From NCBI GenBank assembly GCA_947385185.1, contig CANDJX010000001.1, positions 1 through 39,712 on the forward strand: DNA of 39,712 bases, in the 5' to 3' direction. Position 1 is the first letter of the stretch. The number at the start of each line of letters is the position of its first letter. The notes under the pieces are model-generated. The model did no database searches. It saw only the letters and a program-made list of their open reading frames with translations, and was not told the origin of the DNA. A program made the translations under genes and the position numbers. The DNA comes from an uncultured Clostridia bacterium. GTDB lineage: Bacteria; Bacillota; Clostridia; Christensenellales; Pumilibacteraceae. Shown piece by piece: positions 11,592 to 26,819 of the stretch.

Positions 11592-12107
11592 CTATACGTT
11601 TTTCAGATAAAAAGCCAGTCTTGACCGTGAAGATATTATATCGCGCTTGACCGTACTCAAAGAGATCCCGAGGTCATCGGCGATCTCGTCGTAATTATAT
11701 CCGTAAGCATAGTGTAAAAGGAGTACCATGCGCACGCGCCTGTCGAAATGACTGAGCGCTTCGCCGAACTCAAGCGACCTTTCGAGCTTCGGATCACAAA
11801 TCGCGTTATCCACGATTTCGTCGTCGACAATCACGATATTGTTCTGCCTGATATAATCCACGACCGCATTTTTCGCCGCCGAGTACATCCAGGCGTTCGG
11901 ATTGTCGATATACCCGTACTTGTCCGCGTTTTCGAAAATACGGCACATCAGATCGGACGCCATATCCTCGGCAACGTCCTCGTCCCGTATCATTGCCAGA
12001 ACCGTAGTTCGCAATCGTTTGTAATAATGCTTGTAAAAACGCGCCATGCCGCGACTGTCTTTATCTCGTATCATGCGCAAGCAGTCGTTAAATTCCTTTG
12101 CGGTCAT
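11592..12107 (-). CDS. ECF-type sigma-70 family RNA polymerase sigma factor
   Basis: Region-2-like DNPNAWMYSAAKNAVVDYIR and region-4 HTH YDEIADDLGISLSTVKRDI. I prefer the ATG at 12107 (GGAAAAGG upstream). The track start 12170 has its SD directly abutting the ATG. Confidence 0.8.
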   Translation of the reverse strand: MTAKEFNDCLRMIRDKDSRGMARFYKHYYKRLRTTVLAMIRDEDVAEDMASDLMCRIFENADKYGYIDNPNAWMYSAAKNAVVDYIRQNNIVIVDDEIVDNAICDPKLERSLEFGEALSHFDRRVRMVLLLHYAYGYNYDEIADDLGISLSTVKRDIISSRSRLAFYLKNV

Positions 12108-12199
12108 TACCTTTTCCTTCGGATAAAAACAATACGGAATCGCTTTTCGTCGGCGCAAAACGCCGACCATCTCCCTTACCCTTACTTTTCTTTATTTTC

Positions 12200-12343: not shown

Positions 12344-12373
12344 TGTGGATAACTTTCGTGGATTTGTGGATAA
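12344..12373 (+). promoter_or_regulatory. Two perfect DnaA boxes (TGTGGATAA) in direct orientation plus a degenerate one between them
   Basis: TGTGGATAA at 12344-12352 and 12365-12373, with CGTGGATTT between them. The site lies between the HK stop and its terminator. Confidence 0.65.
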
Positions 12374-14700: not shown

Positions 14701-15648
14701 TTATGCGACAAGCGCGGCTATTCCCGTGACGGCATATCCCGCGGCAAGAGCAATCGCCACAAGCGCGCCGGTCACGGCTATGTTTTCTTTTAAGTTCTTA
14801 TTATCCTTGAACAGAACGGCGATACCGAATCCCGCGTTGACCGTCAGTCCCGCCACCGCGGCGCCGAGAGTCAGCGATCCGCCGGCAAACATTTCGGTGA
14901 TCATAACGCTGGCGGCGCAGTTCGGGATCAATCCGACAAGTACGGCGAAAATCGGCTGTATGTACGTTCCTTTCGCCATAAAATCCGCAAAAACCTCGTC
15001 GCCGCCCGCCGAAAATATAACAGTACCGAGCGCAAAGTTGACAAAAAAGACAAAAAGCGTTATAGTAATGGTATGAATCACGGGGTGCTTGAAGTATTTG
15101 TCGAATATCTCCGCCGCCCCACGGCGTTTTTCGCGTACGGCGTGCTCCTCATGATCATGATCCTCGTGTCCGTCGCCGCCCGGAGTATGCCCGCAACAAC
15201 CGTGATCGTGCGGCATTTCCGCTTCGTCGTAAACGCTCAGTTCCCTTTTACGGAACGCGAAATTGAAAACGTATCCGACGACGAGAGCAAGCGCAACCTT
15301 CGCTCCGACGAGCAGTCCGAGCTTTGACCATACCGACGGATCGGCCACCGAACTGCCGAGCAGAATGGGGAGAGCTTCGTCGCTCGTTGCGATAAACACC
15401 GCGAGAAGCGTACCGATACGGATATATTTTTTGGAATACAGTTCGCTTGCGACGACCGAAAATCCGCATTGCGGCAACAGAGCGACTCCCGTGCCGACGA
15501 GCGGCGCGAGTCCGCCGCGAAGAGCGCCGCTGCGCTTGATACCGTTCAGCTTCCCCGACTCGAACAAGCCGATGAGCATATGAACGAGAAATAAAAAAGG
15601 GATCAATAAAGCGGTATCTTTTAACGAATCGAGAAGTACGTCCGACAT
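14701..15648 (-). CDS. Polytopic permease with a His/Cys-rich loop, putative metal transporter (ArsP_2-like)
   Basis: Pseudo-repeat motifs LPQCGFS and IPNCAAS in TM regions. The central loop is HDHGCCGHTPGGDGHEDHDHEEH. The family name is recalled from memory. Confidence 0.5.
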   Translation of the reverse strand: MSDVLLDSLKDTALLIPFLFLVHMLIGLFESGKLNGIKRSGALRGGLAPLVGTGVALLPQCGFSVVASELYSKKYIRIGTLLAVFIATSDEALPILLGSSVADPSVWSKLGLLVGAKVALALVVGYVFNFAFRKRELSVYDEAEMPHDHGCCGHTPGGDGHEDHDHEEHAVREKRRGAAEIFDKYFKHPVIHTITITLFVFFVNFALGTVIFSAGGDEVFADFMAKGTYIQPIFAVLVGLIPNCAASVMITEMFAGGSLTLGAAVAGLTVNAGFGIAVLFKDNKNLKENIAVTGALVAIALAAGYAVTGIAALVA

Positions 15649-15802
15649 TTCCTGTCCTTATATTTTATTATAACTTTCGCCGTATGTCAAGTTTTTTTCG
15701 GTTTCGGTATATACTTAATATATATTTAAGAATAACGAATTATATTTAATATACGGCATATTTTGAAAAAGCCCGAATAAAAACACGGTTTCGGAGGAAT
15801 TT

Positions 15803-17416
15803 ATGAAAAAAACCGGGAAAAAAATAATCGCGCTCGCGCTCGCCGCCGCGCTTATGACTACCGTCATGCTTACGGCGTGCTCGTGCAGCCGGTATAAACA
15901 CGATACGTTCGACTATGACGAGCTCGAATACCGCCGTCCGAACTATGCGGCGCTCGACCGGGCGTTCGAAAAGGCGGACAGATACGTAAACGGCAGCGCA
16001 ATGCAGCTCGTCGACGCGTTGAACGAAGTCAGCGACGGACTGAACGAAATGTCTTTCGCTTATTCGTACGTTTCGATCGAGTACAACAAAGACACCGTGC
16101 GTTGGCGCGACGATTATCTGACCCTTTCCGCAAAATATAACGAGGCGTTCCAGAAGTATTACGATATAATATACAAAGTCCTCGAAAGCGATAATTCGTC
16201 GCTGCTCGACGGCTGGAGCGAAGAAGACAAAGCGTTCATCCGCGACCGTCACGAGGTCATGTCCGACGAATACGTCGCGCTTCAGAACGAAATCGACGGT
16301 CTTATCGCCGAATACACCGCGCTCGAGGGCGAAGAAAAGGCTTACGCCACGGCGGCCGCCGAAATCCTTATAGAGCTTGCGGCGAAAAACAACGAACTCG
16401 CCGCGCTCGAGGGGTACGACAACTACGTCGATTACGCTTACGAGTCGTACTACGAGCGCGATTATACCGTAGCGCAGGTCGAAGAACTCTGCGACGCGTT
16501 CAAAACCCATCTTTCCCCCCGGCTCGATTCGTACGTAACTGCGACGGGCGACCCGAACGAGAACTTTTACGGCTATGCGAACGACCTTTCGAGGGGCAAA
16601 GAACTCGTGCGCGAATATACGACCGAGATCGGAAAATATATGACCGAAGCATACGACTACATGGTAGAATGCAACCTGCATTACGAAGCGACCAACGCAA
16701 AGAATCCCAACGGCTACGGCGGCGCGTTCACGACCTTGCTGTACGGTTACGACGCTCCGTATATGTATCAGATGTGTTCGGGCGGATATAGCGACATTTC
16801 CACGTTCGTACACGAATTCGGGCATTTTACCGCGTTCTACAACCTCGGCAACACCGGGTCGGCTACGCTCGACATAAACGAGATACAGTCGCAGGCGAAC
16901 GAAGCGCTGTTCATGCCGTATTATAAACGGCTTTACACCGAGGAGCAGGCGGCGAAGATCGAGAAACAGGAGCTTTTCCGCTCCGTGTACTGGTCGGTGC
17001 TCATGGGCTGTCTGTTCGACGAATTCCAGCGCGAAATTTACCTCAGACCCGAGGTTTACGACACGCCCGAAGCCGTGAACGCGCTGTTCGCGAAACTGCT
17101 CGAGGACTATAACGCCACGGCGCTGTACTCGAAAACGCAACTGCAATATTGGTGGGCGGAAGTCCCCCACACCTTCCAGTCCCCGTTCTATTATATCAGC
17201 TACGCCGTTTCGCAGCTCCCCGCGCTTATCATCTACGAGGACTCCGTTTCAGACAGGAACGCGGCGATAACCGAGTATAATTATATCCAGAATTACGGCG
17301 ACGGAACTTATACGTTCAACGAACTTCTCGACCGCGCCGGAGTCGCTTCGCCGTTTAAGACAGAAACGATCTCGTCCCTCGCGGCGTTTCTCGACAGCCG
17401 TCTTATCGCGGCGTAA
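15803..17416 (+). CDS. Lipoprotein, M3-family (oligoendopeptidase-like) zinc metallopeptidase
   Basis: Lipobox MLTAC after the signal peptide, HEFGH zinc motif (VHEFGHFTAFY), GGAGG SD upstream. Confidence 0.75.
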   Translation: MKKTGKKIIALALAAALMTTVMLTACSCSRYKHDTFDYDELEYRRPNYAALDRAFEKADRYVNGSAMQLVDALNEVSDGLNEMSFAYSYVSIEYNKDTVRWRDDYLTLSAKYNEAFQKYYDIIYKVLESDNSSLLDGWSEEDKAFIRDRHEVMSDEYVALQNEIDGLIAEYTALEGEEKAYATAAAEILIELAAKNNELAALEGYDNYVDYAYESYYERDYTVAQVEELCDAFKTHLSPRLDSYVTATGDPNENFYGYANDLSRGKELVREYTTEIGKYMTEAYDYMVECNLHYEATNAKNPNGYGGAFTTLLYGYDAPYMYQMCSGGYSDISTFVHEFGHFTAFYNLGNTGSATLDINEIQSQANEALFMPYYKRLYTEEQAAKIEKQELFRSVYWSVLMGCLFDEFQREIYLRPEVYDTPEAVNALFAKLLEDYNATALYSKTQLQYWWAEVPHTFQSPFYYISYAVSQLPALIIYEDSVSDRNAAITEYNYIQNYGDGTYTFNELLDRAGVASPFKTETISSLAAFLDSRLIAA

Positions 17417-17438
17417 AAGTCAAAAATAAAAGGAAAAT

Positions 17439-17477
17439 AAGCAGGCGTTACTTTTCCGGTAATGCCTGCTTGTTTTT
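17439..17477 (+). terminator. Rho-independent terminator
   Basis: AAGCAGGC ... GCCTGCTT stem followed by GTTTTTA. Confidence 0.7.
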
Positions 17478-17538
17478 ATAATATGAAAAATAACCTTTCG
17501 GTTGTGATTTTTTACTTTTATAAGTTATTCTATAATAA

Positions 17539-18684
<1,146 letters not shown>

Positions 18685-18722
18685 TTTTTCGTATTGTTAT
18701 ATTGTGTTCAAATGTTTATTAT

Positions 18723-18851
18723 TGTGGATAACTTGTGGATAAATACTTAATATCGGGGAATAAACGCTAAAATTTTCCGATTGGACTTTTCAAGTTATCC
18801 ACACGAAAAACAATAAAAACCCCGCTGTTTTGTGCACATCGGTGTGGAAAA
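18723..18851. promoter_or_regulatory. DnaA-box cluster (three perfect boxes plus one 1-mismatch box)
   Basis: TGTGGATAA at 18723-18731 and 18734-18742 (2-nt gap), TTATCCACA at 18795-18803 (opposite orientation), TGTGGAAAA at 18843-18851. A ~100-bp extremely AT-rich block (18870-18979) follows. Confidence 0.7.
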
Positions 18852-18979
18852 ATTTTCGTACATTTTGGGTAATTAAATCATTACAAAATACTATATATTG
18901 TGCTTTTATGAATTATACACATTTCCACGCGGTATATTAATACATATAAATAAAAAATACATAAAATAAATAATAAACT

Positions 18980-19615
18980 ATGAGCAATACGGAAACATAC
19001 AAAAAACTTTACGACATACTTTCGGTGTATAACTCGAAATTCAATCTTACGGCAATCAAAAATTACGAGGATTATAAACTGAAACATATAGAGGACAGCA
19101 AACTCGGATTGCCTTTTGTAAACGGTAAAGTTCTCGATATAGGAAGCGGAGCAGGGTTTCCCGCGCTCGTGCTTAAAATAGAAAAACCCGAACTCGACGT
19201 AACGATGATAGACAGCGTGAGAAAAAAGGTCGATTATCTCAATTTTGCCGTAAATGAACTTGAACTGAAAAATATACGGGCTATACATTCGCGGGTCGAA
19301 GATCTGAAAGAAAAAGAAATTTTCGATACCGTAACGGCGCGCGCCGTGGCAAGACTCAACGTGCTTGCGGAATACGCTTTGCCGTTTGTGAAGATAGGCG
19401 GAGTATTCGTCGCATATAAAGCGGACGATTGCGAGGAAGAAATAAACGAGGCGAAAAAAGCAATAAAGACGCTCGGCGGAAAAATAGAAAAAGCGGAGAG
19501 TATTGCTCTGTCCGAAGACACGGTCAGAAAAATCATAGTCGTAAGAAAAATCGGAAGATCTCCGTCGGTTTATCCGAGGGGAGGAAACAAGCCGCGCAGC
19601 AATCCGATAGTGTGA
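18980..19615 (+). CDS. rsmG: 16S rRNA (guanine527-N7)-methyltransferase
   Basis: LDIGSGAGFPALVLKI SAM motif, ARAVA, and GidB-like length (211 aa). Confidence 0.9.
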   Translation: MSNTETYKKLYDILSVYNSKFNLTAIKNYEDYKLKHIEDSKLGLPFVNGKVLDIGSGAGFPALVLKIEKPELDVTMIDSVRKKVDYLNFAVNELELKNIRAIHSRVEDLKEKEIFDTVTARAVARLNVLAEYALPFVKIGGVFVAYKADDCEEEINEAKKAIKTLGGKIEKAESIALSEDTVRKIIVVRKIGRSPSVYPRGGNKPRSNPIV

Positions 19616-19627
19616 TTATTTTTTCAC

Positions 19628-19668
19628 TTGACATTATGATTAGATAGTGTTAAGATATTTGTGGATAA
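19628..19668 (+). promoter_or_regulatory. sigma-A promoter with a DnaA box over the predicted TSS
   Basis: TTGACA (19628-19633), a 17-nt spacer, TAAGAT (19651-19656). A perfect TGTGGATAA at 19660-19668 runs into the AAGGAG SD. Confidence 0.55.
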
Positions 19669-19679
19669 GGAGATTGTTT

Positions 19680-20174
19680 ATGACCGACAGACAGAGAAAT
19701 TTGGTTTTGAACGCGATCAAGATGGGCGGAGTATTCATCAGTTGCGGCACGGGAAACAAAATAAATATAATGGACACTCATTGGGGAACGCTCGGAAGAA
19801 TGTGGAACCGCGACGTGTTCGTTCTTCCCGTTCGTAAAAAGAAATACTCTCACGAACTTATTACGAAAAATATGAGCTTTGTAGTCAACGTTCCCACAAC
19901 CGATATGACGAACGAACTTATCCGTTGTTCGAATATGTCCGGACACGATACGGATAAATTCAAAGAATTCGGATTTAACGCCGTTCCCGCAAAACTCGTC
20001 AAATCGGTAGGAATCGAAGAATGCGACATCCAGCTCGAATGCAAAGTGGTTTATATGGCGGAAATGCATAAAAGCAAACTTAACCCCACCATCGCGCAGG
20101 ATATGTATATAGACAGAGAATATCATACGCTTTTCTTCGGAGAAATAGTGAGGAGTTCGTTCAAAAAACATTGA
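19680..20174 (+). CDS. Flavin-reductase-like (FMN-binding split-barrel) domain protein
   Basis: FVVNVP...CSNMSGHDTDKFKEFGF...ECDIQLECKVV...HTLFFGEIV follows the flavin_reduct domain pattern. The ATG at 19680 has an AAGGAG SD. Confidence 0.55.
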   Translation: MTDRQRNLVLNAIKMGGVFISCGTGNKINIMDTHWGTLGRMWNRDVFVLPVRKKKYSHELITKNMSFVVNVPTTDMTNELIRCSNMSGHDTDKFKEFGFNAVPAKLVKSVGIEECDIQLECKVVYMAEMHKSKLNPTIAQDMYIDREYHTLFFGEIVRSSFKKH

Positions 20175-20197
20175 TTGAAATATAGTCTGATAAAAAA

Positions 20198-20229
20198 AGA
20201 GCACGGAATTTTGTTTCCGTGTTCTTTTT
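20198..20229. terminator. Bidirectional rho-independent terminator
   Basis: AGAGCACGGAA-TTTTGT-TTCCGTGTTCT hairpin (one mismatch) flanked by A7 and T5, between convergent genes. Confidence 0.7.
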
Positions 20230-20300
20230 GATTTTTGTATCGGATATATTTATTTTTTGCTGTCGCAAATAAACTGTTTTTAATTGTTTCCGGCGCTTTT

Positions 20301-20684
20301 TTACTTGAATTTATGTCCGCAATAAGGGCAGAATTTGTCGGTTTCTTCTCTCGGAGAGCCGCAAGTCGGACATTTTTTGCCGTCCGAAGCGCTTGCTTCC
20401 GTGTCATGCGTTTCTTCCGGATATTTTTCGTTTTGCGTCGGAGTATCGTACCCGAACGGATCTATGCGTTTTCTTCTCGGCGCGGGAGGTGTATCGAAAA
20501 AGTCGTGCGACGTATGTCCGTATCCGGAACCGTTATAATATCCTTGATCGGGACGCCTGACGGAATTCCGGTTGTTGCGTTTATTTCTTTTTACCGTCTT
20601 TACTATAAAACCGATCAGTACGGAAATAAAAACGACGGCAAAAACAACGCCGAATATTATAAGTATCATTACATCTTCATCCAT
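20301..20684 (-). CDS. Small membrane protein with a C-terminal zinc ribbon
   Basis: N-terminal TM ILIIFGVVFAVVFISVLIGFIV and C-terminal CPTCG...CPYCG. GAGAGG SD. Confidence 0.6.
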   Translation of the reverse strand: MDEDVMILIIFGVVFAVVFISVLIGFIVKTVKRNKRNNRNSVRRPDQGYYNGSGYGHTSHDFFDTPPAPRRKRIDPFGYDTPTQNEKYPEETHDTEASASDGKKCPTCGSPREETDKFCPYCGHKFK

Positions 20685-20727
20685 AACACAGCCTCTCGAT
20701 TATTATACTTTGAGAAAAGAGTTTTTG

Positions 20728-22419
20728 TCAATCGTTTGACAGTCTTAAGAGAAGCGCGTCGATTTCTTCGCACGCGGTTTTGAGCGCGCCTTCCCCGAGC
20801 GGATCTTTCAGTCCGACGCTTTGCACAAGCTGCCCGAAAGGAAGCTCTCCGCCTTTCCCGAGCAACGTCATATAAAGCTCAAACGCCGATTTGTAATCTT
20901 TTTGCGACCGTACGAGAATCTGATGAGCTACAGACTGCGAAAGGCAATAATCTATATAGTACATAGGATTTTCATAGATATGCATCTGGTATTGCCAGCG
21001 CGTACCGTTTTCTATATACGGGATTCCTTTTGTGGAAAGGTATGGACGATAATAAATGTCCAGTTTTTGCCACTCTTTATTCCGTTCAGACGGCGTCATG
21101 TCCGGATTTTCATAGCAGATTTCCTGAAATTCGTCCACCATTGCGCCGTACGGAATAAACGTAAGAGAACTCATAAGGTGCATATATTTATAATCCTGCG
21201 CGCGCTTTCCGAAAAATTTATCCATATATTTCCATGCCAGAAATTCCATTGCCATCGAATGAATTTCCGCTACCGACATGGTCCCGAGATTCAGTTCGTA
21301 ATCGACGTTGTTTTCGAACATTTTATAGTATGCGAGAGCGTGCCCGGCTTCATGCGTCAGCACGTCCACGTCGCCGCTCGAGCCGTTAAAGTTGGCGAGT
21401 ATAAAAGGCTGTTTATAGTCGTCTATCGACGTGCAATATCCCCCGCCCCACTTGCCTTTTCTCGCATACACGTCGAAGGCGTCCGCGGCAAGCATGGAAT
21501 CAATGAACGCGCCCGTTTCTTCGCCCATGTCGCGGTACATTTCGCGCGCAGCGGCGAACATTTGCTTCGGACTCAATATCGGTTCGGGATTTCCTTCCTT
21601 AAAACAGATCTCGTTGTCGTACAACATGATTTCGTCCAACCCGAGCTTTGCCGCGATCGATTTTTTGTGTTTCGCAACGAGCGGCGTAACGTCCGACGCG
21701 ACGGCGTCACGGAATTTGCCTATTTCTTTTCGTCCGTAAGAGTATCTGCCCATCTGGCAATCGCCCATTTCCGCGAACGACTTAAATCCCATTTTACGCG
21801 CCATTTTCGCACGCACGCGTACCAATTTATCGAAAATTCCGTCAAGACTGCCGGAGATTCCCGAAAGGGTTTTTCCGAGCGCTTCCATGGACGCGCGGCG
21901 GATCTTTCGGTCGCGATCGTCGAAGTATTTGCGAAGCACCGAAAGCGGCATTTCCCGTCCCTTGAACTCGAACGTTGTTTCGCTCATGAGCCGATCGTAT
22001 TCGGTCACCAGGCGGCTTTCTTCCACAAGCTCGGGAATGATTTTCTCGTCCATTATCCCGAGCTCAAGTTCATAAACTTTCGCAACGTTCGGATTCATCA
22101 GTCCGAGAGCCTCGGACAGGTGCGGGTTACTTAAAAACGCGCGGTTGAATTCCACCGCCGCAGACGAAAATCGCGGCGAATTTTCGTCGTAGTACGTCTT
22201 TTCGCCCAAATAAAATTCGTCGGAAGTGTTGAGCGTAAAACGAATATAGCAAAGGGAAGACATGGTCTGTATTTTCTTCGCCTCTTCGATGCATTCGTTT
22301 CTGATCTCCGACATTTCGCGTCCGCTCGCGGCTTTTCTCATTCTTTCGGTCAGTTTTTTTACCGTTTCGCACGCGCGGTCGACGTCGATTCGTTCGTACT
22401 TCATCTCACTGATTTTCAT
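20728..22419 (-). CDS. pepF: Oligoendopeptidase F family (M3B) metallopeptidase
   Basis: HEAGHA zinc motif (LTHEAGHALAYY). The N-terminus MKISEMKYERIDVD is typical of this family. I chose the ATG at 22419 because a consensus promoter lies immediately upstream, inside the longer track ORF. Confidence 0.85.
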   Translation of the reverse strand: MKISEMKYERIDVDRACETVKKLTERMRKAASGREMSEIRNECIEEAKKIQTMSSLCYIRFTLNTSDEFYLGEKTYYDENSPRFSSAAVEFNRAFLSNPHLSEALGLMNPNVAKVYELELGIMDEKIIPELVEESRLVTEYDRLMSETTFEFKGREMPLSVLRKYFDDRDRKIRRASMEALGKTLSGISGSLDGIFDKLVRVRAKMARKMGFKSFAEMGDCQMGRYSYGRKEIGKFRDAVASDVTPLVAKHKKSIAAKLGLDEIMLYDNEICFKEGNPEPILSPKQMFAAAREMYRDMGEETGAFIDSMLAADAFDVYARKGKWGGGYCTSIDDYKQPFILANFNGSSGDVDVLTHEAGHALAYYKMFENNVDYELNLGTMSVAEIHSMAMEFLAWKYMDKFFGKRAQDYKYMHLMSSLTFIPYGAMVDEFQEICYENPDMTPSERNKEWQKLDIYYRPYLSTKGIPYIENGTRWQYQMHIYENPMYYIDYCLSQSVAHQILVRSQKDYKSAFELYMTLLGKGGELPFGQLVQSVGLKDPLGEGALKTACEEIDALLLRLSND

Positions 22420-22425
22420 ATTTAT

Positions 22426-22454
22426 ATTGTATATTTTTTCTCCGGCTTTGTCAA
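22426..22454 (-). promoter_or_regulatory. Consensus sigma-A promoter of pepF (leaderless configuration)
   Basis: The minus strand reads TTGACA (22454-22449), a 17-nt spacer, TACAAT (22431-22426), 6 nt (ATAAAT), then ATG (22419). Confidence 0.65.
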
Positions 22455-23438
22455 TGCTTTTTGCGCACATCGATGCAATTCGATTATGTTTTAATAACAA
22501 TTGCTCGAATGTCAATAAATGTCTATTTTTGCAAAATGATGTCACATTTTTTCATATTATCGCAAAAACATAGCAATACGATATTTGATATTAAAAACAT
22601 ATCATTATGAATTATTATTTTCAAAACAATATCATATTGATAATTATTAAAATATAACTTGTTGCAGTTATGAAATTTTGATTTTTGAATTTGCTGACGG
22701 AAATTTTGATTTTTTGAGAGGATACGGGATAAATCATGCGCAGGCGACTGAATTACTTGGCTATGCTTCGGCGCGATTCCGAAAAAATTTCAAAATATCC
22801 GAAAATTCGGGAGCAAAAGACAAAAAGTAACGATATGATTTCATAACAATTCGAAATTTTATTGTTTTTTGACGGGAAATTTTCGTTTAATTTTTGGGAT
22901 TTTGCAAAATAAGTTATTATTTAATAATTATTTTTCCTGTCTATATTGACCACGCCGCGCTTTTCTGAACGTTAACTGCCTGATTTTGCATAAAAATTCC
23001 GGATCTCTACAATTGACGGCGACGGCTTCTTATATAATTTTCGTCGATTTGTCTGTTTTAGAGCGACCTTCGGACGTTTTTGCTCTGTGGCGTTCTTGCC
23101 GGCGCGCAATTTTGCTTTTCGTTTCTGCTTTTAGATAGCGTAATTCCGAATTTCGCCCGCTTTTAGTCGTTTGCGCTGCTTTTGGATGCTTCGAAGAATC
23201 GGTTTTGAGTTCAAAGTTTCGCGTTTCTTTATGCCATATTTTGTTATCTATAATGTTTCGAGCGTTTGATCCCGCCTCTGTATAATAAGCGGTCGTTGTT
23301 TGCGCGCACGAACGGCTTTTTGTTTTGCAAATTTTAGATTTTTGTTGTCCGTATTCTTTTATTTGTTACGGACGGCGACTTGGTTTTTGCAGTGATCGGA
23401 CCGGATACCGAATGACGTGGTGCATAAGTTTTTTGCAT

Positions 23439-23458
23439 TGTGGATAACTTGTGGATAA
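23439..23458 (+). promoter_or_regulatory. Tandem DnaA-box doublet
   Basis: TGTGGATAA at 23439-23447 and 23450-23458. The 22-mer ATTGTGGATAACTTGTGGATAA is identical to 18721-18742. Confidence 0.7.
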
Positions 23459-24082
23459 CCGTTTCGAAGCGGGTAAAATCGTGAGAAAATCGGCGATTTC
23501 TAACAGAATACGCATTATTTTTTTCGCATATTTTCATTGGCTTCCGAATTTTTCAAAATAAAGTTATGAAATAGTAATCATTAGATTGTTTTATCTATGC
23601 GCTATTGGTTTTTACTGTCTTTTTGCCCGTTTTTTGACCTTAATTTTGCCGTAGATTTCGATTTTCTTAAAAAATCGGGCGATTGTCGAACGACGATTTT
23701 CGGAACCTCGATGAATTTGAAATTTTTTATTCTTGTTTGAAAAATTCATTGTGGTTTCGTATCAAAAATTTTTTTGTTAAGCTCATGAATTTTGACTTGA
23801 ATTGTTCTGACGATCATAAAGATTCCGCAAAAGATCCCGCGGCGTTTGGAAAAATTTTTTGCTCCGACATTTTGCCTGAATGCTTACGGCAATGAAAATC
23901 TTTGTATTCGTGACGTTCACTTTTTTGCCCGGATTTCAGGTGTCGAGATTTTTGCGGACGATGCGATTTGACGTTTGATTTTTGGATTGCGATTTCGTTT
24001 ATCCATTGTGCGTTTTTGGCGAGCTTTATTTTTGTTGCCGAGGTTGCTGAAATTTTAGCTTCGCGGCTTTTGGAAGTCGAAA

Positions 24083-24098
24083 TGTTTCACGTGAAACA
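24083..24098. promoter_or_regulatory. parS: parS centromere-like site (perfect palindrome)
   Basis: TGTTTCACGTGAAACA matches the Firmicute parS consensus TGTTNCACGTGAAACA. Confidence 0.85.
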
Positions 24099-24182
24099 TT
24101 CTCTGCTTTCCCCGAAAAACACTGTTTCTCCTGAAAAGAGTTATCGCACGGGAAGGATGAAAATTCGATCGAATAGGTGTTA

Positions 24183-24198
24183 TGTTTCACGTGAAACA
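24183..24198. promoter_or_regulatory. parS: parS centromere-like site (second copy)
   Basis: An identical TGTTTCACGTGAAACA exactly 100 bp from the first. Both copies are extended to ATGTTTCACGTGAAACAT. Confidence 0.85.
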
Positions 24199-24836
24199 TC
24201 AGGGTGACTCTACATCGATCAATCAAAAAAGAAAAGCGAACATACCGCATATGACACACGAAAAATTCTGTGGGTTTGTAAACGTTCGGGCATGGAAAAG
24301 GTAATCCGGGATCCATGCGAAGAATAAAATAATGTGTGGTTTTGCTAAGCGTTCGGTAGAAAATGAAAGTCCGTCAATGAATAAAAGCGCGGAAAAATTT
24401 ATTCATGCCGCGTTACCGAAGGCAATAAAATTCAGGGCGTTTCAATACTGAAACAACGCGAGGAATGCGGATGAAATTGCTTGAGCCATGCCTCGGAAAA
24501 TGAAATCGGGCAATCCCGTTTAACGGTAAAAGCGATATGAAAAAACGGTATTATTTGTCTGCCTTACACGGATCCGATAAGATCTCTTACTCCAAAATGA
24601 AGTATAAAAAGCAGGAAGAAAACGCGGCGATTTCGGCAATGCCGTATTGCCCGGGACCACGAGCCGATAAAGATCAAGGCGCTTTATCAAAATTTACAGG
24701 TGCGTCGATGACGGCAAAAAGACGTTAAGGTTTGCGGCGACGACTATCATACGCCCGCTGTTGCGATTTATGCGGCAATAATTATGACGTTTATTCGGTT
24801 ATAAAATATTGCAAAAAATGCTTCGGGTGAGCTATT

Positions 24837-25030
24837 GTGACGTTTGTCCGCACCGACTTGCGCACGGTCTTTTGCCGCTCGGATTCCGAGATAATGACAC
24901 GCGGAAAAAGTTTCGAAGAAGTGCTGCGACGGTTGACTGCACCGACTTGTACGCGGTCTTTTGCCGCTCGGATCTCGAGATATTGACACGTAACAATGTC
25001 TTAGAAAAGCCGCCACGACGGTTTGTCCGC
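24837..25030 (+). repeat. Tandem repeat, ~89-90-bp unit, two copies plus a truncated third
   Basis: 24844-24901 versus 24933-24990 differ at 8 of 58 positions (hand alignment). The unit restarts at ~25013-25030 (GACGGTTTGTCCGC) and then diverges. Each unit contains the short palindrome CTCGGA-T-TCCGAG or CTCGAG. Confidence 0.75.
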
Positions 25031-25098
25031 GCAAGCCCATGCACACGCCTTAAGTCGATCGGATTGTGTGCGAAGCATGGGCGAGTCCATATGCGGCG

Positions 25099-25133
25099 CA
25101 AAAGAAAAGGCGCGGGATTTATACCCGTGCCTT
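25099..25133 (-). terminator. Rho-independent terminator of parB
   Basis: The minus strand reads AAGGCACGGG-TATAAAT-CCCGCGCCTT (9 bp plus one mismatch) followed by TTCTTTT. Confidence 0.65.
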
Positions 25134-25212
25134 CCGAAAATCGTTGTGACTTTCAAAACCTTTTAGGCGTTTTTTTACGAAAAATCTTTTATCGAAACTT
25201 GCGGCAAGCTGC

Positions 25213-26130
25213 TTAATTCTCCGACGGTTCCGCGTCCGTTTCCGCGTCTTGCTTTTTGTATTCCTCGAGCACTTGCATGAGCTGATGTATGCGGTCGAGG
25301 TCGTCCGAAGAATAATAATCGATATAAATTCGTCCCTTGCGATCGTTGCCGAAAACCGTAACTTTGGTCGAGAACACTCTTTGAAGCCTCTCCACCATAT
25401 CTTTAAGCTCCAACGACTGTGCGGGCGGTTTCGGCTTGGCTGCAGGCGGATTATTGAACGCTTTGACGAGTTTTTCGAAATCGCGCACCGTCATTTTTCC
25501 GCCCACGGCTTTTTTGGCAAGCTCGAGCTGTGCAAGCTCGTCTTTGACGGTGACGAGGCATCTTGCGTGCCCTTCCGAAAGTTCGCCGCCGGCAACCAGA
25601 TCGATAACGGCGGAGGACAGGGAAAGAAGTCGAAGCGTGTTTGCGACGGCGGGTCTTGACTTTCCGATTCTGTCCGCAACCTGCTCTTGCGTGTACGAAT
25701 AGTCGTCCATCAATTGTTTGATTGCATTCGCGACTTCGATCGGGTTCAGATCCTCGCGCTGAAGATTTTCAATCAAAGAAATTTCCTTGACTTCTTTTTC
25801 GGAATAATTCCGCACGATAGCGGGGATGGTAACAAGTCCGGCTTTGCGTGCGGCGCGCCAACGCCGCTCCCCGGCGATAATCATATATCCGTCGCCGTGT
25901 CCGACCAGAATTATAGGTGATATGACTCCGTGCACCCGAATGCTGTTGGCAAGCTCGAGCAATGCGGCTTCGTCAAAGTGCTTGCGGGGCTGATTTTCGT
26001 TCGGGACGATTTTCGACAGTTCGATTTCCTGCGCCGAATTGCCGGAAGCGTTGCTTTCGCTTTCGAGGTCAATATCTCCGAACAATGCTCCGAGTCCGCG
26101 ACCGAGTCCGTGTTTTCCTGCCATTATCAA
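25213..26130 (-). CDS. parB: Chromosome partitioning protein ParB/Spo0J
   Basis: GLGRGLGALF N-terminus, the GERRWRAA CTP-binding/arginine patch, HTH QEQVADRIGKSRPAVANTLRLL, GGAGGA SD. Confidence 0.93.
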   Translation of the reverse strand: MIMAGKHGLGRGLGALFGDIDLESESNASGNSAQEIELSKIVPNENQPRKHFDEAALLELANSIRVHGVISPIILVGHGDGYMIIAGERRWRAARKAGLVTIPAIVRNYSEKEVKEISLIENLQREDLNPIEVANAIKQLMDDYSYTQEQVADRIGKSRPAVANTLRLLSLSSAVIDLVAGGELSEGHARCLVTVKDELAQLELAKKAVGGKMTVRDFEKLVKAFNNPPAAKPKPPAQSLELKDMVERLQRVFSTKVTVFGNDRKGRIYIDYYSSDDLDRIHQLMQVLEEYKKQDAETDAEPSEN

Positions 26131-26158
26131 ACTTCCTCCGTGAATTACTTTTTATCTT

Positions 26159-26187
26159 ATTATATATAAAACCGACGCGCTTGTCAA
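26159..26187 (-). promoter_or_regulatory. sigma-A promoter of parB
   Basis: The minus strand reads TTGACA (26187-26182), a 17-nt spacer, then TATAAT (26164-26159). Confidence 0.6.
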
Positions 26188-26540
26188 GGTCGAACGGGGA
26201 ACTATATCGAAATATTTTCGGGCGCGGCGAAAAATATCGGAAATTTCCGCCCGTACGTCGGAATTATATTCGCGCGCTTTATAACGGGGGGGGGAATAAG
26301 CGCTCGGGACATACGCCTCATGCGTACGTTAGGAGCGTAGGTCGCCGCAATCGCGTCCATAGCGCACGATCGCGTAAGAAAAATATAAAGCGTCGGATTA
26401 TAGCGTCTGCGCGCCGAAATAATCGATTTCGGGATAGCCGAAATGGCGAACAAATTTATTTGCACCGACGGCTCGCGCAATTTTATCCATATTTCATGCG
26501 TTCCGGGTTTTCGGTATTGCTACCGCGTATAATGCCGCAC

Positions 26541-26725
26541 CCGACGTTACGCCTGCGTTCTCGGGGGGGGCGATCGATTGTGCATGACTCTCGGTCGTCC
26601 TGCCGAACGTTGCATCCGACGCTACGCCCGCGTTTTCGGGGCGCGTCTGATTGTGCATGACTCTCGGTCGTCCTGCCGAACGTTGCACCGACGTTGCGCC
26701 TGCGCTCTCGGGCGCGCCCGACGTT
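26541..26725 (+). repeat. GC-rich tandem repeat, 72-75-bp unit, about 2.5 copies
   Basis: Units start with CCGACG at 26541, 26616 and 26688. A 39-nt core GATTGTGCATGACTCTCGGTCGTCCTGCCGAACGTTGCA is identical at 26576-26614 and 26649-26687. The segments between cores also resemble each other. Confidence 0.8.
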
Positions 26726-26784
26726 CCGAATAAATAAAAAGCCGCAATCGAATAATTAACACCAAAAATCGACCGAATAAAAAC

Positions 26785-26813
26785 TTTACATTTGCATTAA
26801 ATTATGGTACAAT
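26785..26813 (+). promoter_or_regulatory. Extended -10 sigma-A promoter of the SDR gene (leaderless configuration)
   Basis: TTTACA (26785-26790), a 17-nt spacer, TGgTACAAT (-10 at 26808-26813), 6 nt, then ATG at 26820. There is no SD. Confidence 0.65.
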
Positions 26814-26819
26814 TCAGAT

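What the first reader, a model, noticed from the sequence alone, without database searches (positions are those of the whole stretch)
22546..25212. 2.67-kb gene-free region in an otherwise tightly packed window
Every other gap in the window is 0.7 kb or less. Here the longest ORF in any frame is 135 aa, and it runs through a tandem repeat. The region contains several elements:
- Two very AT-rich blocks (about 22560-22720 and 22840-22945).
- The DnaA-box doublet (23439-23458).
- Two perfect parS sites.
- An 89-bp tandem repeat.
- Thirteen copies of the hexamer TTTTGC on the plus strand between 22900 and 23960 (hand count), far more than one hexamer should show in ~1 kb.

Candidate explanations are an origin/centromere organising region, a locus of non-coding RNAs, or heavily decayed genes. 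I could not find SD+ATG small genes of convincing length.
Basis: partly seen in the sequence, partly recalled or inferred. Interest (0 to 1): 0.7.

Follow-up and report, generated by a model that had tools for sequence, protein, structure and literature searches.

The report
Gene-free parS and DnaA-box spacer beside parB
The 2.7-kb empty stretch is real non-coding DNA next to an orphan parB gene, holding the chromosome's two ParB docking sites (parS), a conserved pair of DnaA boxes and easily melted AT-rich DNA; the parts are ordinary, but the size and fast turnover of the spacer across related gut Clostridia are unusual.

Summary
The gap is also present in two independent assemblies, so it is not an artefact.

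I found no evidence of genes or known RNAs:
- Six-frame Pfam and Rfam searches found nothing.
- Phage and plasmid DNA searches found nothing.
- The two longest ORFs have no credible homologues.
- No reading frame is conserved in relatives.

What the gap does contain:
- the parB terminator;
- two perfect 18-bp parS palindromes 100 bp apart;
- a tandem consensus DnaA-box doublet that is near-invariant across the clade;
- four AT-rich blocks, one of which is the least stable duplex in the window;
- the pepF promoter;
- fast-evolving spacer.

The same layout, parB then two parS then a DnaA doublet then pepF, recurs in every relative that carries pepF downstream of parB. The gene-free interval ranges from 0.6 to 5.2 kb. 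One species has more than 10 kb of gene-free DNA.

My best reading is an origin-proximal ParB/SMC loading site plus an auxiliary DnaA-binding module. The gap doublet fails the DnaA-trio (BUS) test. A five-box cluster in the mnmA-rsmG intergenic region (18685-18979) passes it and is the better oriC candidate. No dnaA gene lies in the window.

I put the probability that oriC unwinds inside the gap at about 0.25. The interest is moderate.

The parts
22425..22454 (-). pepF (M3 oligoendopeptidase) promoter, TTGACA-17-TACAAT. The ATG at 22419 lies 6 nt after the -10 element, so the mRNA is probably leaderless.
   Evidence: scores it 11 of 12. The same arrangement is present in L001. pepF Pfam assignment is.
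22473..22732 (.). AT-rich block 1 (25% GC or less per 100 bp), containing a 29-bp tandem repeat at 22564-22635. It includes the least stable 80-bp duplex of the whole window (22580-22659) and a local cumulative GC-skew minimum at 22661.
   Evidence: It is 65% identical to L001 12217-12452.
22813..22952 (.). AT-rich block 2. It contains the element ATAACTTATTTTGCAAAAT, which recurs at 23552-23581 and in the gaps of relatives.
   Evidence: repeats D7, I1. Matches are found in L001, L023, L025, L026 and L027.
22900..23960 (+). T-rich spacer (40% T) with 13 copies of TTTTGC. No longer motif surrounds the copies.
   Evidence: The word is also enriched on both strands in the gaps of L023, L026 and L027.
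23024..23121 (.). Hypervariable patch with 17 of the 57 differences from strain L031. Further patches lie at 23754-23805 and 24430-24449.
23419..23458 (-). Tandem consensus DnaA boxes, TTATCCACA-AG-TTATCCACA (23458-23439), plus a third two-mismatch box TTATGCACC (23427-23419), all in the same orientation.
   Evidence: The 22-mer AGTTATCCACAAGTTATCCACA is conserved in L001, L023, L025, L026, L027, L029 and L030. The 200-bp bin 23382-23581 has no differences from L031.
23513..23822 (.). Two AT-rich blocks (23513-23612 and 23703-23822) on the parB side of the doublet. The segment 23437-23633 is the only interior block alignable with L001.
   Evidence: (70-72% identity).
24082..24099 (.). parS site 1, the perfect 18-bp palindrome ATGTTTCACGTGAAACAT.
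24182..24199 (.). parS site 2, identical to site 1 and exactly 100 bp from it.
   Evidence: Two or more perfect or near-perfect (≤2 mismatches) parS follow parB in all relatives.
24836..25013 (.). 89-bp tandem repeat of two copies at 74-78% identity. It has no significant secondary structure. One Logan contig (L010) breaks here.
25100..25134 (-). Intrinsic terminator of parB: a GC-rich hairpin followed by UUUUCUUUU.
   Evidence: the 116 nt after the parB stop fold with z = -2.2. Weak Rfam matches fall on the same hairpin.
25213..26124 (-). Orphan parB (ParB_N, HTH_ParB and ParB_C domains). No parA lies beside it.

Best explanation
The gap is non-coding DNA in the origin-proximal part of the chromosome of an uncultured gut Clostridia bacterium (Christensenellales/Pumilibacteraceae-like).

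It is a composite, read from parB towards pepF:
1. The parB terminator.
2. About 0.9 kb of spacer.
3. Two perfect parS palindromes. ParB, encoded next door without a ParA partner, would load here as a clamp, spread over flanking DNA and recruit SMC condensin. This step is inferred from what is known of the family.
4. About 0.6 kb of spacer.
5. A tandem pair of consensus DnaA boxes 11 bp apart, with a third weaker box and conserved AT-rich flanks. This should be a high-affinity DnaA-binding module. It most likely acts as an auxiliary DnaA-box cluster that titrates DnaA or delivers it to a nearby origin, rather than as the unwinding site. This is also inferred.
6. About 0.5 kb of spacer.
7. Two very AT-rich blocks and the pepF promoter.

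The DNA between these islands carries no detectable information. It evolves fast and changes length freely between species.
For: Non-coding:
- No ORF over 135 aa.
- No Pfam hit in six frames.
- No Rfam hit.
- No phage or plasmid similarity.
- The longest ORF matches only its own locus in another strain.
- The parS-spanning ORF gives only spurious hits to repeat proteins.
- No frame-specific conservation with relatives.
- The gene caller calls nothing in this interval in L009.

parS and ParB:
- Perfect sites and ParB domains.
- The parS sites downstream of parB are conserved in 13 related loci.
- ParB without ParA is known from S. pneumoniae, where ParB spreads more than 5 kb from parS (PMC4488948).

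DnaA module:
- The doublet is conserved across the clade while its flanks are not.
- Its 200-bp neighbourhood is invariant between strains, whereas other 200-bp bins carry up to 17 differences.
- In the L023/L030 and L026/L027 strain pairs the doublet segment is 99% identical, while adjacent spacer drops to 78-90%.
- B. subtilis has DnaA-box clusters outside oriC that restrain initiation together with Spo0J/Soj (PMC3245932).
- A distal DnaA box can act at a great distance from the trios (PMC6669920).

Origin-proximal context:
- Eight perfect DnaA boxes lie in 39.7 kb, against about 0.3 expected.
- Genes diverge, minus strand on the left and plus strand on the right.
- GC skew changes sign here.
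- rsmG lies nearby.
Against: - No experiment shows ParB or DnaA occupancy.
- B. subtilis DnaA-box clusters hold more boxes than the two or three seen here.
- The gap holds the least stable duplex in the window and a local GC-skew minimum. That fits an unwinding site.
- In relative L025 the gap has two converging doublets around AT-rich DNA, and one of them passes the BUS scan. The module may therefore be an origin in some lineages.
- The strand asymmetry is unexplained. The gap is A+C-rich on the parB-sense strand, and the bias is stronger than at four-fold sites of neighbouring genes.
- The TTTTGC excess is also unexplained.
Confidence: 0.6

Rival explanations
1. The gap contains the replication origin itself. 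DnaA bound at the doublet and at weaker boxes would open the AT-rich repeats at 22546-22732. The parS sites would then sit a kilobase or so from oriC, and parB would be the only head-on gene.
For: - The least stable 80-bp duplex of the window is at 22580-22659.
- It overlaps AT-rich tandem repeats.
- A local cumulative GC-skew minimum falls at 22661, and the skew flips at the pepF-proximal end of the gap in WIN, L001, L023, L028 and L029.
- The AT-rich DNA lies 3' of the TTATCCACA-oriented boxes, as in E. coli and B. subtilis (my recollection of those sequences).
- The gene-orientation pattern fits.
- L025 has a BUS-like converging doublet arrangement in its gap.
Against: - There are only two perfect boxes plus one weak one. 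Sites with 2 or fewer mismatches are not enriched: 14 observed against 10.5 +/- 2.9 expected.
- The AT-rich block is about 780 bp from the doublet.
- No run of three or more DnaA-trios lies within 16 nt of either box (criteria from PMC8287927).
- The mnmA-rsmG intergenic region has five boxes in 200 bp, a conserved BUS-like module and the second least stable duplex.
- The more distant relative L002 has the AT-rich DNA upstream of pepF but no DnaA boxes. The AT-rich block may therefore belong to pepF regulation.
- Four-fold-site skews are too weak to locate the origin.
Confidence: 0.25
2. The gap encodes one or more novel non-coding RNAs, for example a long G+U-rich transcript on the plus strand running from the pepF-proximal AT-rich region towards parB. 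Transcription-linked mutation bias would then account for the strand asymmetry.
For: - A consistent G+T excess on the plus strand across the gap and in the gaps of all relatives. This is the direction expected for a non-template strand.
- parB has its own terminator, so any transcript in the gap would be independent of parB.
- Clustered, partly paired substitutions around a small hairpin at 23060-23085 between strains.
Against: - No Rfam match even at E<=10.
- Promoter-like sites are not enriched, 11 against 7.0 +/- 2.5. Terminator-like sites are below expectation.
- Tested segments fold no better than shuffles.
- The sequence is unalignable between species with 75-88% ParB identity, apart from protein-binding motifs.
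- Length varies from 0.6 to more than 10 kb.
Confidence: 0.08
3. The gap is the decayed remains of genes or of a mobile element that once sat between parB and pepF.
For: - The parB-proximal 1.2 kb has near-genomic GC, 45%.
- The interval gains and loses kilobases between relatives.
- Gene callers call small Pfam-less ORFs in some relatives.
Against: - No Pfam domain in any of six frames, in the window or in the three parB-sense frames of 4.9 kb of the L027 desert.
- No integrase, transposase or repeat termini.
- No hit in phage or plasmid collections.
- No protein-level conservation between gaps.
- The A+C-rich strand composition differs from the purine-rich coding strands here.
- A gene-free interval at the same position in at least eight species is hard to explain by independent decay.
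Confidence: 0.06
4. The region is an assembly artefact or a chimeric join.
For: It contains tandem repeats. Some short-read contigs break at 24860 and at 26605.
Against: Two independent assemblies from other sequencing runs span it colinearly at 99.99% and 98.3% identity. The same architecture appears in relatives.
Confidence: 0.01

Closest known systems
Chromosomal ParB-parS centromere without ParA, as in Streptococcus pneumoniae (PMC4488948; review PMC7022226)
   Same: - Consensus 16-bp parS palindromes lie in the origin-proximal region next to parB.
- parB has no parA partner.
- The expected role is ParB nucleation, spreading over kilobases and SMC loading.
   Different: - Here both sites sit 1.0-1.1 kb downstream of the parB stop, inside a gene-free interval. 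They are not inside or beside genes.
- The interval is expanded and hypervariable across the clade.
- ParB binding has not been tested.
DnaA-box clusters outside oriC in Bacillus subtilis (Okumura et al. 2012, PMC3245932)
   Same: - Consensus DnaA boxes are clustered in intergenic DNA near the origin, and several such clusters lie within a few tens of kb.
- The proposed role is binding DnaA to restrain or tune initiation, in functional interplay with Spo0J.
   Different: - Only two perfect boxes plus one weak box are present here.
- The module is physically next to parS.
- No titration or regulatory effect has been shown.
Bacterial oriC with the basal unwinding system: DnaA box, spacer of 16 bp or less, DnaA-trios, AT-rich element (PMC6669920, PMC8287927)
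   Same: - Tandem DnaA boxes in one orientation with AT-rich, easily melted DNA on their 3' side.
- Location at a gene-orientation and GC-skew switch.
   Different: - No DnaA-trios lie next to the gap doublet.
- The AT-rich block is about 0.8 kb away.
- No dnaA gene is within 14 kb on one side or 25 kb on the other.
- A better BUS-like module lies 4.5 kb away, upstream of rsmG.

Membership tests
Chromosomal parS/ParB centromere | 16-bp palindrome matching TGTTNCACGTGAAACA | tested here: met
   Two perfect sites at 24083-24098 and 24183-24198. No other site with 3 or fewer mismatches occurs in the window.
Chromosomal parS/ParB centromere | Cognate ParB with N-terminal, HTH and dimerisation domains encoded in the genome | tested here: met
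   25213-26124 (-) carries ParB_N, HTH_ParB and ParB_C.
Chromosomal parS/ParB centromere | Sites conserved at the same position in relatives | tested here: met
   One to four perfect or near-perfect (≤2 mismatches) parS lie downstream of parB in L001-L005 and L023-L030.
Chromosomal parS/ParB centromere | ParB occupancy and spreading, and SMC recruitment | not testable with these tools
   This needs ChIP-seq in the organism or a heterologous host.
oriC (DnaA-dependent chromosomal origin) | Cluster of several DnaA boxes | tested here: inconclusive
   The gap has two perfect boxes plus one two-mismatch box. Sites with 2 or fewer mismatches are not above chance. The mnmA-rsmG intergenic region has five boxes with 1 or fewer mismatches in 200 bp.
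oriC (DnaA-dependent chromosomal origin) | DnaA box followed within 16 bp by three or more DnaA-trios (BUS; PMC8287927) | tested here: not met
   Neither gap box passes my scan. The box at 18913 passes with a 12-nt spacer and trios ATA TTA ATA, conserved in L001 and L023. The box-to-trio orientation used in the scan rests on my recollection of the B. subtilis sequence.
oriC (DnaA-dependent chromosomal origin) | Intrinsically unstable AT-rich unwinding element beside the boxes | tested here: inconclusive
   The least stable 80-bp duplex of the window lies in the gap at 22580-22659, but about 780 bp from the doublet.
oriC (DnaA-dependent chromosomal origin) | Position at the strand-compositional and gene-orientation switch | tested here: inconclusive
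   A local cumulative GC-skew minimum is at 22661 and the window-wide minimum is near 17410. Four-fold-site skews are weak and noisy.
oriC (DnaA-dependent chromosomal origin) | Linkage to dnaA, which is usual in Firmicutes but not universal | tested here: not met
   No dnaA is in the window or within 10 kb of parB in L023-L030.
oriC (DnaA-dependent chromosomal origin) | Initiation activity: marker frequency, autonomous replication or in vitro unwinding | not testable with these tools
   No read-coverage data or experiments were available.
DnaA-box cluster outside oriC (B. subtilis type) | Consensus DnaA boxes clustered in origin-proximal intergenic DNA, separate from the unwinding site | tested here: inconclusive
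   The tandem consensus boxes are intergenic and conserved. Whether they are separate from oriC depends on the unresolved position of the origin.
Structured non-coding RNA (Rfam families) | Match to a covariance model, or a conserved and stable structure | tested here: not met
   No hits at gathering score. Only five chance-level hits at E<=10. Folding z-scores range from -1.0 to +1.1, apart from the parB terminator.
Pseudogene or mobile-element remnant | Recognisable protein or DNA homology | tested here: not met

The most novel reading that the evidence does not exclude
In this clade of gut Clostridia the replication origin may have separated from dnaA. It would then be a multi-part structure built around an orphan parB: DnaA-box arrays upstream of parB in some species, then parB, then the parS pair, then a conserved DnaA doublet with AT-rich DNA. 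All of this sits in a gene-free interval that is kept clear of genes while its sequence turns over faster than synonymous sites. The interval reaches more than 16 kb around parB in one species. On this reading the empty DNA is a selected landing and spreading zone for ParB, SMC and DnaA, not junk.
Probability: 0.2. Interest if true: 0.7.

Novelty: new variant of a known kind. Interest (0 to 1): 0.45.

Why it matters
parS sites, DnaA-box clusters and AT-rich elements are textbook parts, so the gap is largely explained. Three things are still worth a specialist's attention.

- A gene-free interval persists at one syntenic position, parB to pepF, across at least eight species. Its length runs from 0.6 to 5.2 kb. 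One species, which lacks pepF in the stretch retrieved, has more than 10 kb of gene-free DNA. This is unusual for bacteria, which normally delete unused DNA.
- Within species, parts of the interval diverge much faster than neighbouring genes (78-90% against about 99% identity). The parS and DnaA islands stay fixed.
- No dnaA gene lies near any of the DnaA-box clusters. The origin of these uncultured Clostridia may therefore be dnaA-unlinked, which is uncommon in Firmicutes.

If the spacer is functional, it would offer a natural system for asking how much flanking DNA ParB/SMC loading needs.

Tried and rejected
- rRNA or other known RNA in the large deserts of relatives: none found by Rfam or ARAGORN.
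- Pseudogenes: six-frame Pfam of the window gap, and of the three parB-sense frames of 4.9 kb of the L027 desert, found nothing.
- Small conserved proteins: fragment tblastn between gaps gave only DNA-level matches in several frames.
- CodY boxes upstream of pepF: one three-mismatch site in the gap, at chance level.
- TTTTGC as a binding-site array: the enrichment is real, but no extended motif and no regular spacing appear. The word is enriched on both strands in the deserts of relatives. I treat it as a word bias of this non-coding DNA, cause unknown.
- Helical phasing of A-tracts: a peak at 11.25 bp looked significant against shuffles. With a finer period grid, coding tiles reach the same power, so I rejected it as a distinguishing feature.
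- Locating the origin by skew: four-fold-site skews are weak and gene-specific. Cumulative minima in 20-40 kb pieces depend on individual genes.
- Structure in the 89-bp repeat: none.
- Similarity to mobile elements: none.
- Hits of the parS-spanning ORF to 1600-aa proteins: these are summed chance matches to internally repeated proteins.
- Walking the long contigs of relatives to find dnaA: not possible under the look-up rules.
Full report
**Observation.**
- The interval 22546-25212 has no ORF longer than 135 aa. That ORF (24809-25216, +) runs through the tandem repeat.
- The conserved start of the left-hand gene, an M3 oligoendopeptidase (pepF), is the ATG at 22419. It lies six nt after a near-perfect TTGACA-17-TACAAT promoter that is also present in the closest relative. 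The true gene-free interval is therefore 2.79 kb.
- The next largest gap is 689 bp.
- The two AT-rich blocks have 21% GC against 48% for the window.
- The DnaA boxes at 23439-23447 and 23450-23458 are perfect.
- The parS sites are perfect 18-bp palindromes exactly 100 bp apart.
- The 89-bp repeat has 2.1 copies at 74-78% identity.
- TTTTGC occurs 13 times on the plus strand in 22900-23960 against 3.2 expected. No dinucleotide shuffle out of 1000 reached 13.
- The region is not a misassembly. A Logan contig from another run is 99.99% identical across 15213-26605. A contig from a different strain is 98.3% identical across 21982-25405.

**Context.**
- The window comes from an uncultured Clostridia bacterium. 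ParB is 88% identical to a Christensenellaceae-labelled MAG and 65-72% identical to Pumilibacteraceae and other Clostridia MAGs.
- Genes left of about 15.7 kb are all on the minus strand. Genes right of 26.8 kb are all on the plus strand. GC skew changes sign between them.
- The right-hand flank of the gap is parB (25213-26124, -) with no parA beside it.
- There is no dnaA gene in the window.
- Eight perfect DnaA boxes occur in 39.7 kb, where about 0.3 are expected. They fall in three intergenic clusters plus one site inside a gene:
  - 12344-12373;
  - 18723-18921, in the mnmA-rsmG intergenic region, with five boxes of 1 or fewer mismatches;
  - the gap doublet;
  - a single site at 19660.

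**The gap is not genes and not a known RNA.**
- Six-frame translations give no Pfam match at E<=1 beyond two chance-level hits.
- Rfam gives nothing at gathering score and only five chance-level hits at E<=10.
- There are no tRNAs.
- There is no similarity to phage or plasmid records.
- The 135-aa ORF matches only the same locus in strain L031.
- The 96-aa ORF that spans both parS sites gives only summed chance matches to internally repeated 1600-aa proteins.
- Stop-free fragments of the gap, searched against the gaps of relatives, match only where the DNA itself is conserved, and in several frames at once.
- Promoter-like and terminator-like sites are not enriched.
- The 116 nt after the parB stop fold into a good intrinsic terminator at 25100-25134 (-). 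The rest of the gap is therefore not simply a parB 3' UTR.

**Comparative anatomy.** I retrieved the parB locus from relatives with 72-88% ParB identity.
- Wherever pepF follows parB, the interval between them is gene-free:

| Locus | Gene-free interval |
|---|---|
| L002 | 0.6 kb |
| L001 | 1.5 kb |
| window | 2.8 kb |
| L023, L024, L030 | 2.75 kb |
| L025 | 3.35 kb |
| L028 | 4.5 kb |
| L029 | 5.15 kb |

- In L026 and L027, two assemblies of one species, about 6 kb upstream and more than 10 kb downstream of parB contain no ORF over 181 aa. They also contain no Rfam family and no tRNA, and the parB-sense frames of a 4.9-kb sample give no Pfam domain.
- In the closer relatives (L001, L023-L030) the order of landmarks is the same: parB, then 0.2-1.2 kb, then two perfect or near-perfect parS, then spacer, then AT-rich blocks, then the doublet AGTTATCCACAAGTTATCCACA (degenerate in L028) usually with a third box 12-28 nt beyond, then pepF where it is present. 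The more distant loci L002-L005 keep the parS sites after parB but lack the doublet.
- Apart from these motifs the gaps are mutually unalignable.
- Only the closest relative, L001, aligns with the window inside the gap. It does so over the doublet with about 200 bp of flank (70-72%) and over the pepF-proximal AT-rich region (65%).

**Evolutionary rate.**
- Between strain pairs whose genes are 98-99.8% identical, spacer segments fall to 78-90% identity. Segments containing the doublet stay at 99%.
- Between the window and strain L031 there are 54 differences in the gap (1.9%) against 3 in 631 coding bases.
- These differences are clustered. Seventeen lie in 23024-23121, ten in 23754-23805 and five in 24430-24449. 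None lie in 23382-23581 (doublet) or 23982-24181 (parS 1).
- The gap is therefore a set of conserved islands in fast-changing spacer.

**Is it the origin?**
- Points in favour:
  - The least stable 80-bp duplex of the whole window is at 22580-22659, inside AT-rich tandem repeats.
  - A local cumulative GC-skew minimum falls at 22661. In most relatives the skew also flips at the pepF-proximal end of the gap.
  - The AT-rich DNA lies on the 3' side of the TTATCCACA-oriented boxes, as in E. coli and B. subtilis. This last point rests on my recollection of those sequences.
- Points against:
  - Only two perfect boxes and one weak box are present, and relaxed boxes are at chance level.
  - The AT-rich block is about 780 bp from the doublet.
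  - I applied the published criterion for the basal unwinding system: a DnaA box, a spacer of 16 bp or less, and at least three NAN trios (PMC8287927). Neither gap box passes.
  - The box at 18913 in the mnmA-rsmG intergenic region does pass. It reads TTATACACA, then a 12-nt spacer ending in a GC cluster, then ATA TTA ATA, then AT-rich DNA up to the rsmG start.
  - That module is conserved with the same spacing in L001 and L023. It adjoins the second least stable duplex of the window and four more boxes.
  - That region is therefore the better oriC candidate. The same sequence could, however, simply be a DnaA-controlled rsmG promoter.
- Skews at four-fold degenerate sites are too weak to decide.
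- My estimates for the unwinding site are about 0.25 in the gap, about 0.4 in 18685-18979, and the remainder elsewhere.

**Most likely mechanism.**
- Shown:
  - perfect parS sites next to an intact ParB gene;
  - a conserved tandem pair of consensus DnaA boxes;
  - a terminator, a promoter and AT-rich low-stability DNA;
  - no coding or known RNA content.
- Inferred from the families:
  - ParB loads at the two parS sites, spreads over neighbouring DNA and recruits SMC. The model is ParA-less S. pneumoniae, where ParB spreads more than 5 kb (PMC4488948; PMC7022226).
  - DnaA binds the doublet with high affinity. The module then either titrates DnaA, like the oriC-proximal DnaA-box clusters of B. 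subtilis that act together with Spo0J (PMC3245932), or delivers DnaA to a nearby unwinding site. Distal boxes can act at great distances (PMC6669920).
- Not explained:
  - why the spacer is so long and persists across species;
  - why it is A+C-rich on the parB-sense strand, more strongly than neighbouring four-fold sites;
  - why TTTTGC/GCAAAA is over-represented.

**Novelty and score.** What is new is the arrangement. An orphan parB is embedded in an expandable, hypervariable, gene-free interval that carries parS and DnaA boxes and is unlinked to dnaA. This holds across a clade of uncultured gut Clostridia. I rate it a new variant of a known kind, with moderate interest (0.45).

Noticed in passing
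window 18685-18979 (mnmA-rsmG intergenic region): Five DnaA boxes lie here: perfect at 18723, 18734 and 18795, and one-mismatch at 18843 and 18913. The doublet is identical to the one in the gap. There is a BUS-like module: TTATACACA, a 12-nt GC-ended spacer, ATA TTA ATA, then AT-rich DNA up to the rsmG ATG. It is conserved in L001 and L023 and adjoins the second least stable duplex of the window. This is the best oriC candidate, or else a DnaA-controlled rsmG promoter.
   Followed up: partly
window 12344-12373: Three DnaA boxes at 11-bp spacing (TGTGGATAAC TTTCGTGGATT TGTGGATAAC, the middle one degenerate) lie in the intergenic region upstream of an ECF-type sigma factor gene (11592-12170, -). 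The arrangement resembles B. subtilis boxes 6 and 7.
   Followed up: no
window 26131-26819: This is the second largest gap (689 bp), between parB and an SDR gene. It is GC-rich, with G-runs and a 73-bp tandem repeat (26565-26687). Two Logan contigs end at 26605. Relatives L023, L026, L027, L029 and L030 carry 3-10 DnaA boxes at this position, but the window and L001 do not.
   Followed up: partly
L026 and L027, 3.8-20.9 kb: In a species with 75% ParB identity, about 6 kb upstream and more than 10 kb downstream of parB have no ORF over 181 aa, no Rfam family and no tRNA. Eight to ten perfect DnaA boxes sit within 500 bp upstream of parB. There is a 1-kb stretch at 29% GC. The word TCAGTATA/TATACTGA is strongly enriched. 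The two assemblies are 78-95% identical here against 98-99.8% in genes.
   Followed up: partly
window 22419-22454 (-): The pepF promoter -10 element ends 6 nt before the ATG, which implies a leaderless mRNA. This is conserved in L001. The ORF list's GTG start at 22545 is probably wrong.
   Followed up: partly
window 15803-20174, compared with L023 16.9-20.9 kb: The block mnmA-rsmG-flavin reductase is inverted relative to parB and pepF in the window and in L001. In L023 and L030 the mnmA, rsmG and flavin-reductase genes are co-oriented with parB and pepF. This points to a local inversion next to the putative origin.
   Followed up: no
window 23060-23090: The small hairpin AGAGC-GACCTTCGGAC-GTTTTTGCTCT is followed by a T-run. 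Strain L031 differs at ten positions in a way that keeps a shifted hairpin (GCC-TTCA-GGC). This could be a short terminator or a protein site, or it could be coincidence.
   Followed up: partly
window 19660-19668 (-): A perfect DnaA box lies just inside the 5' end of the flavin-reductase ORF. It also passes the permissive BUS scan, which shows how low the specificity of that scan is.
   Followed up: no
window 25213-26124 and all related loci: parB is orphan throughout this clade. No parA/soj or noc gene lies within 10 kb, and the classical rnpA-yidC-jag-mnmE-mnmG-rsmG-noc-soj-spo0J block is dispersed.
   Followed up: partly
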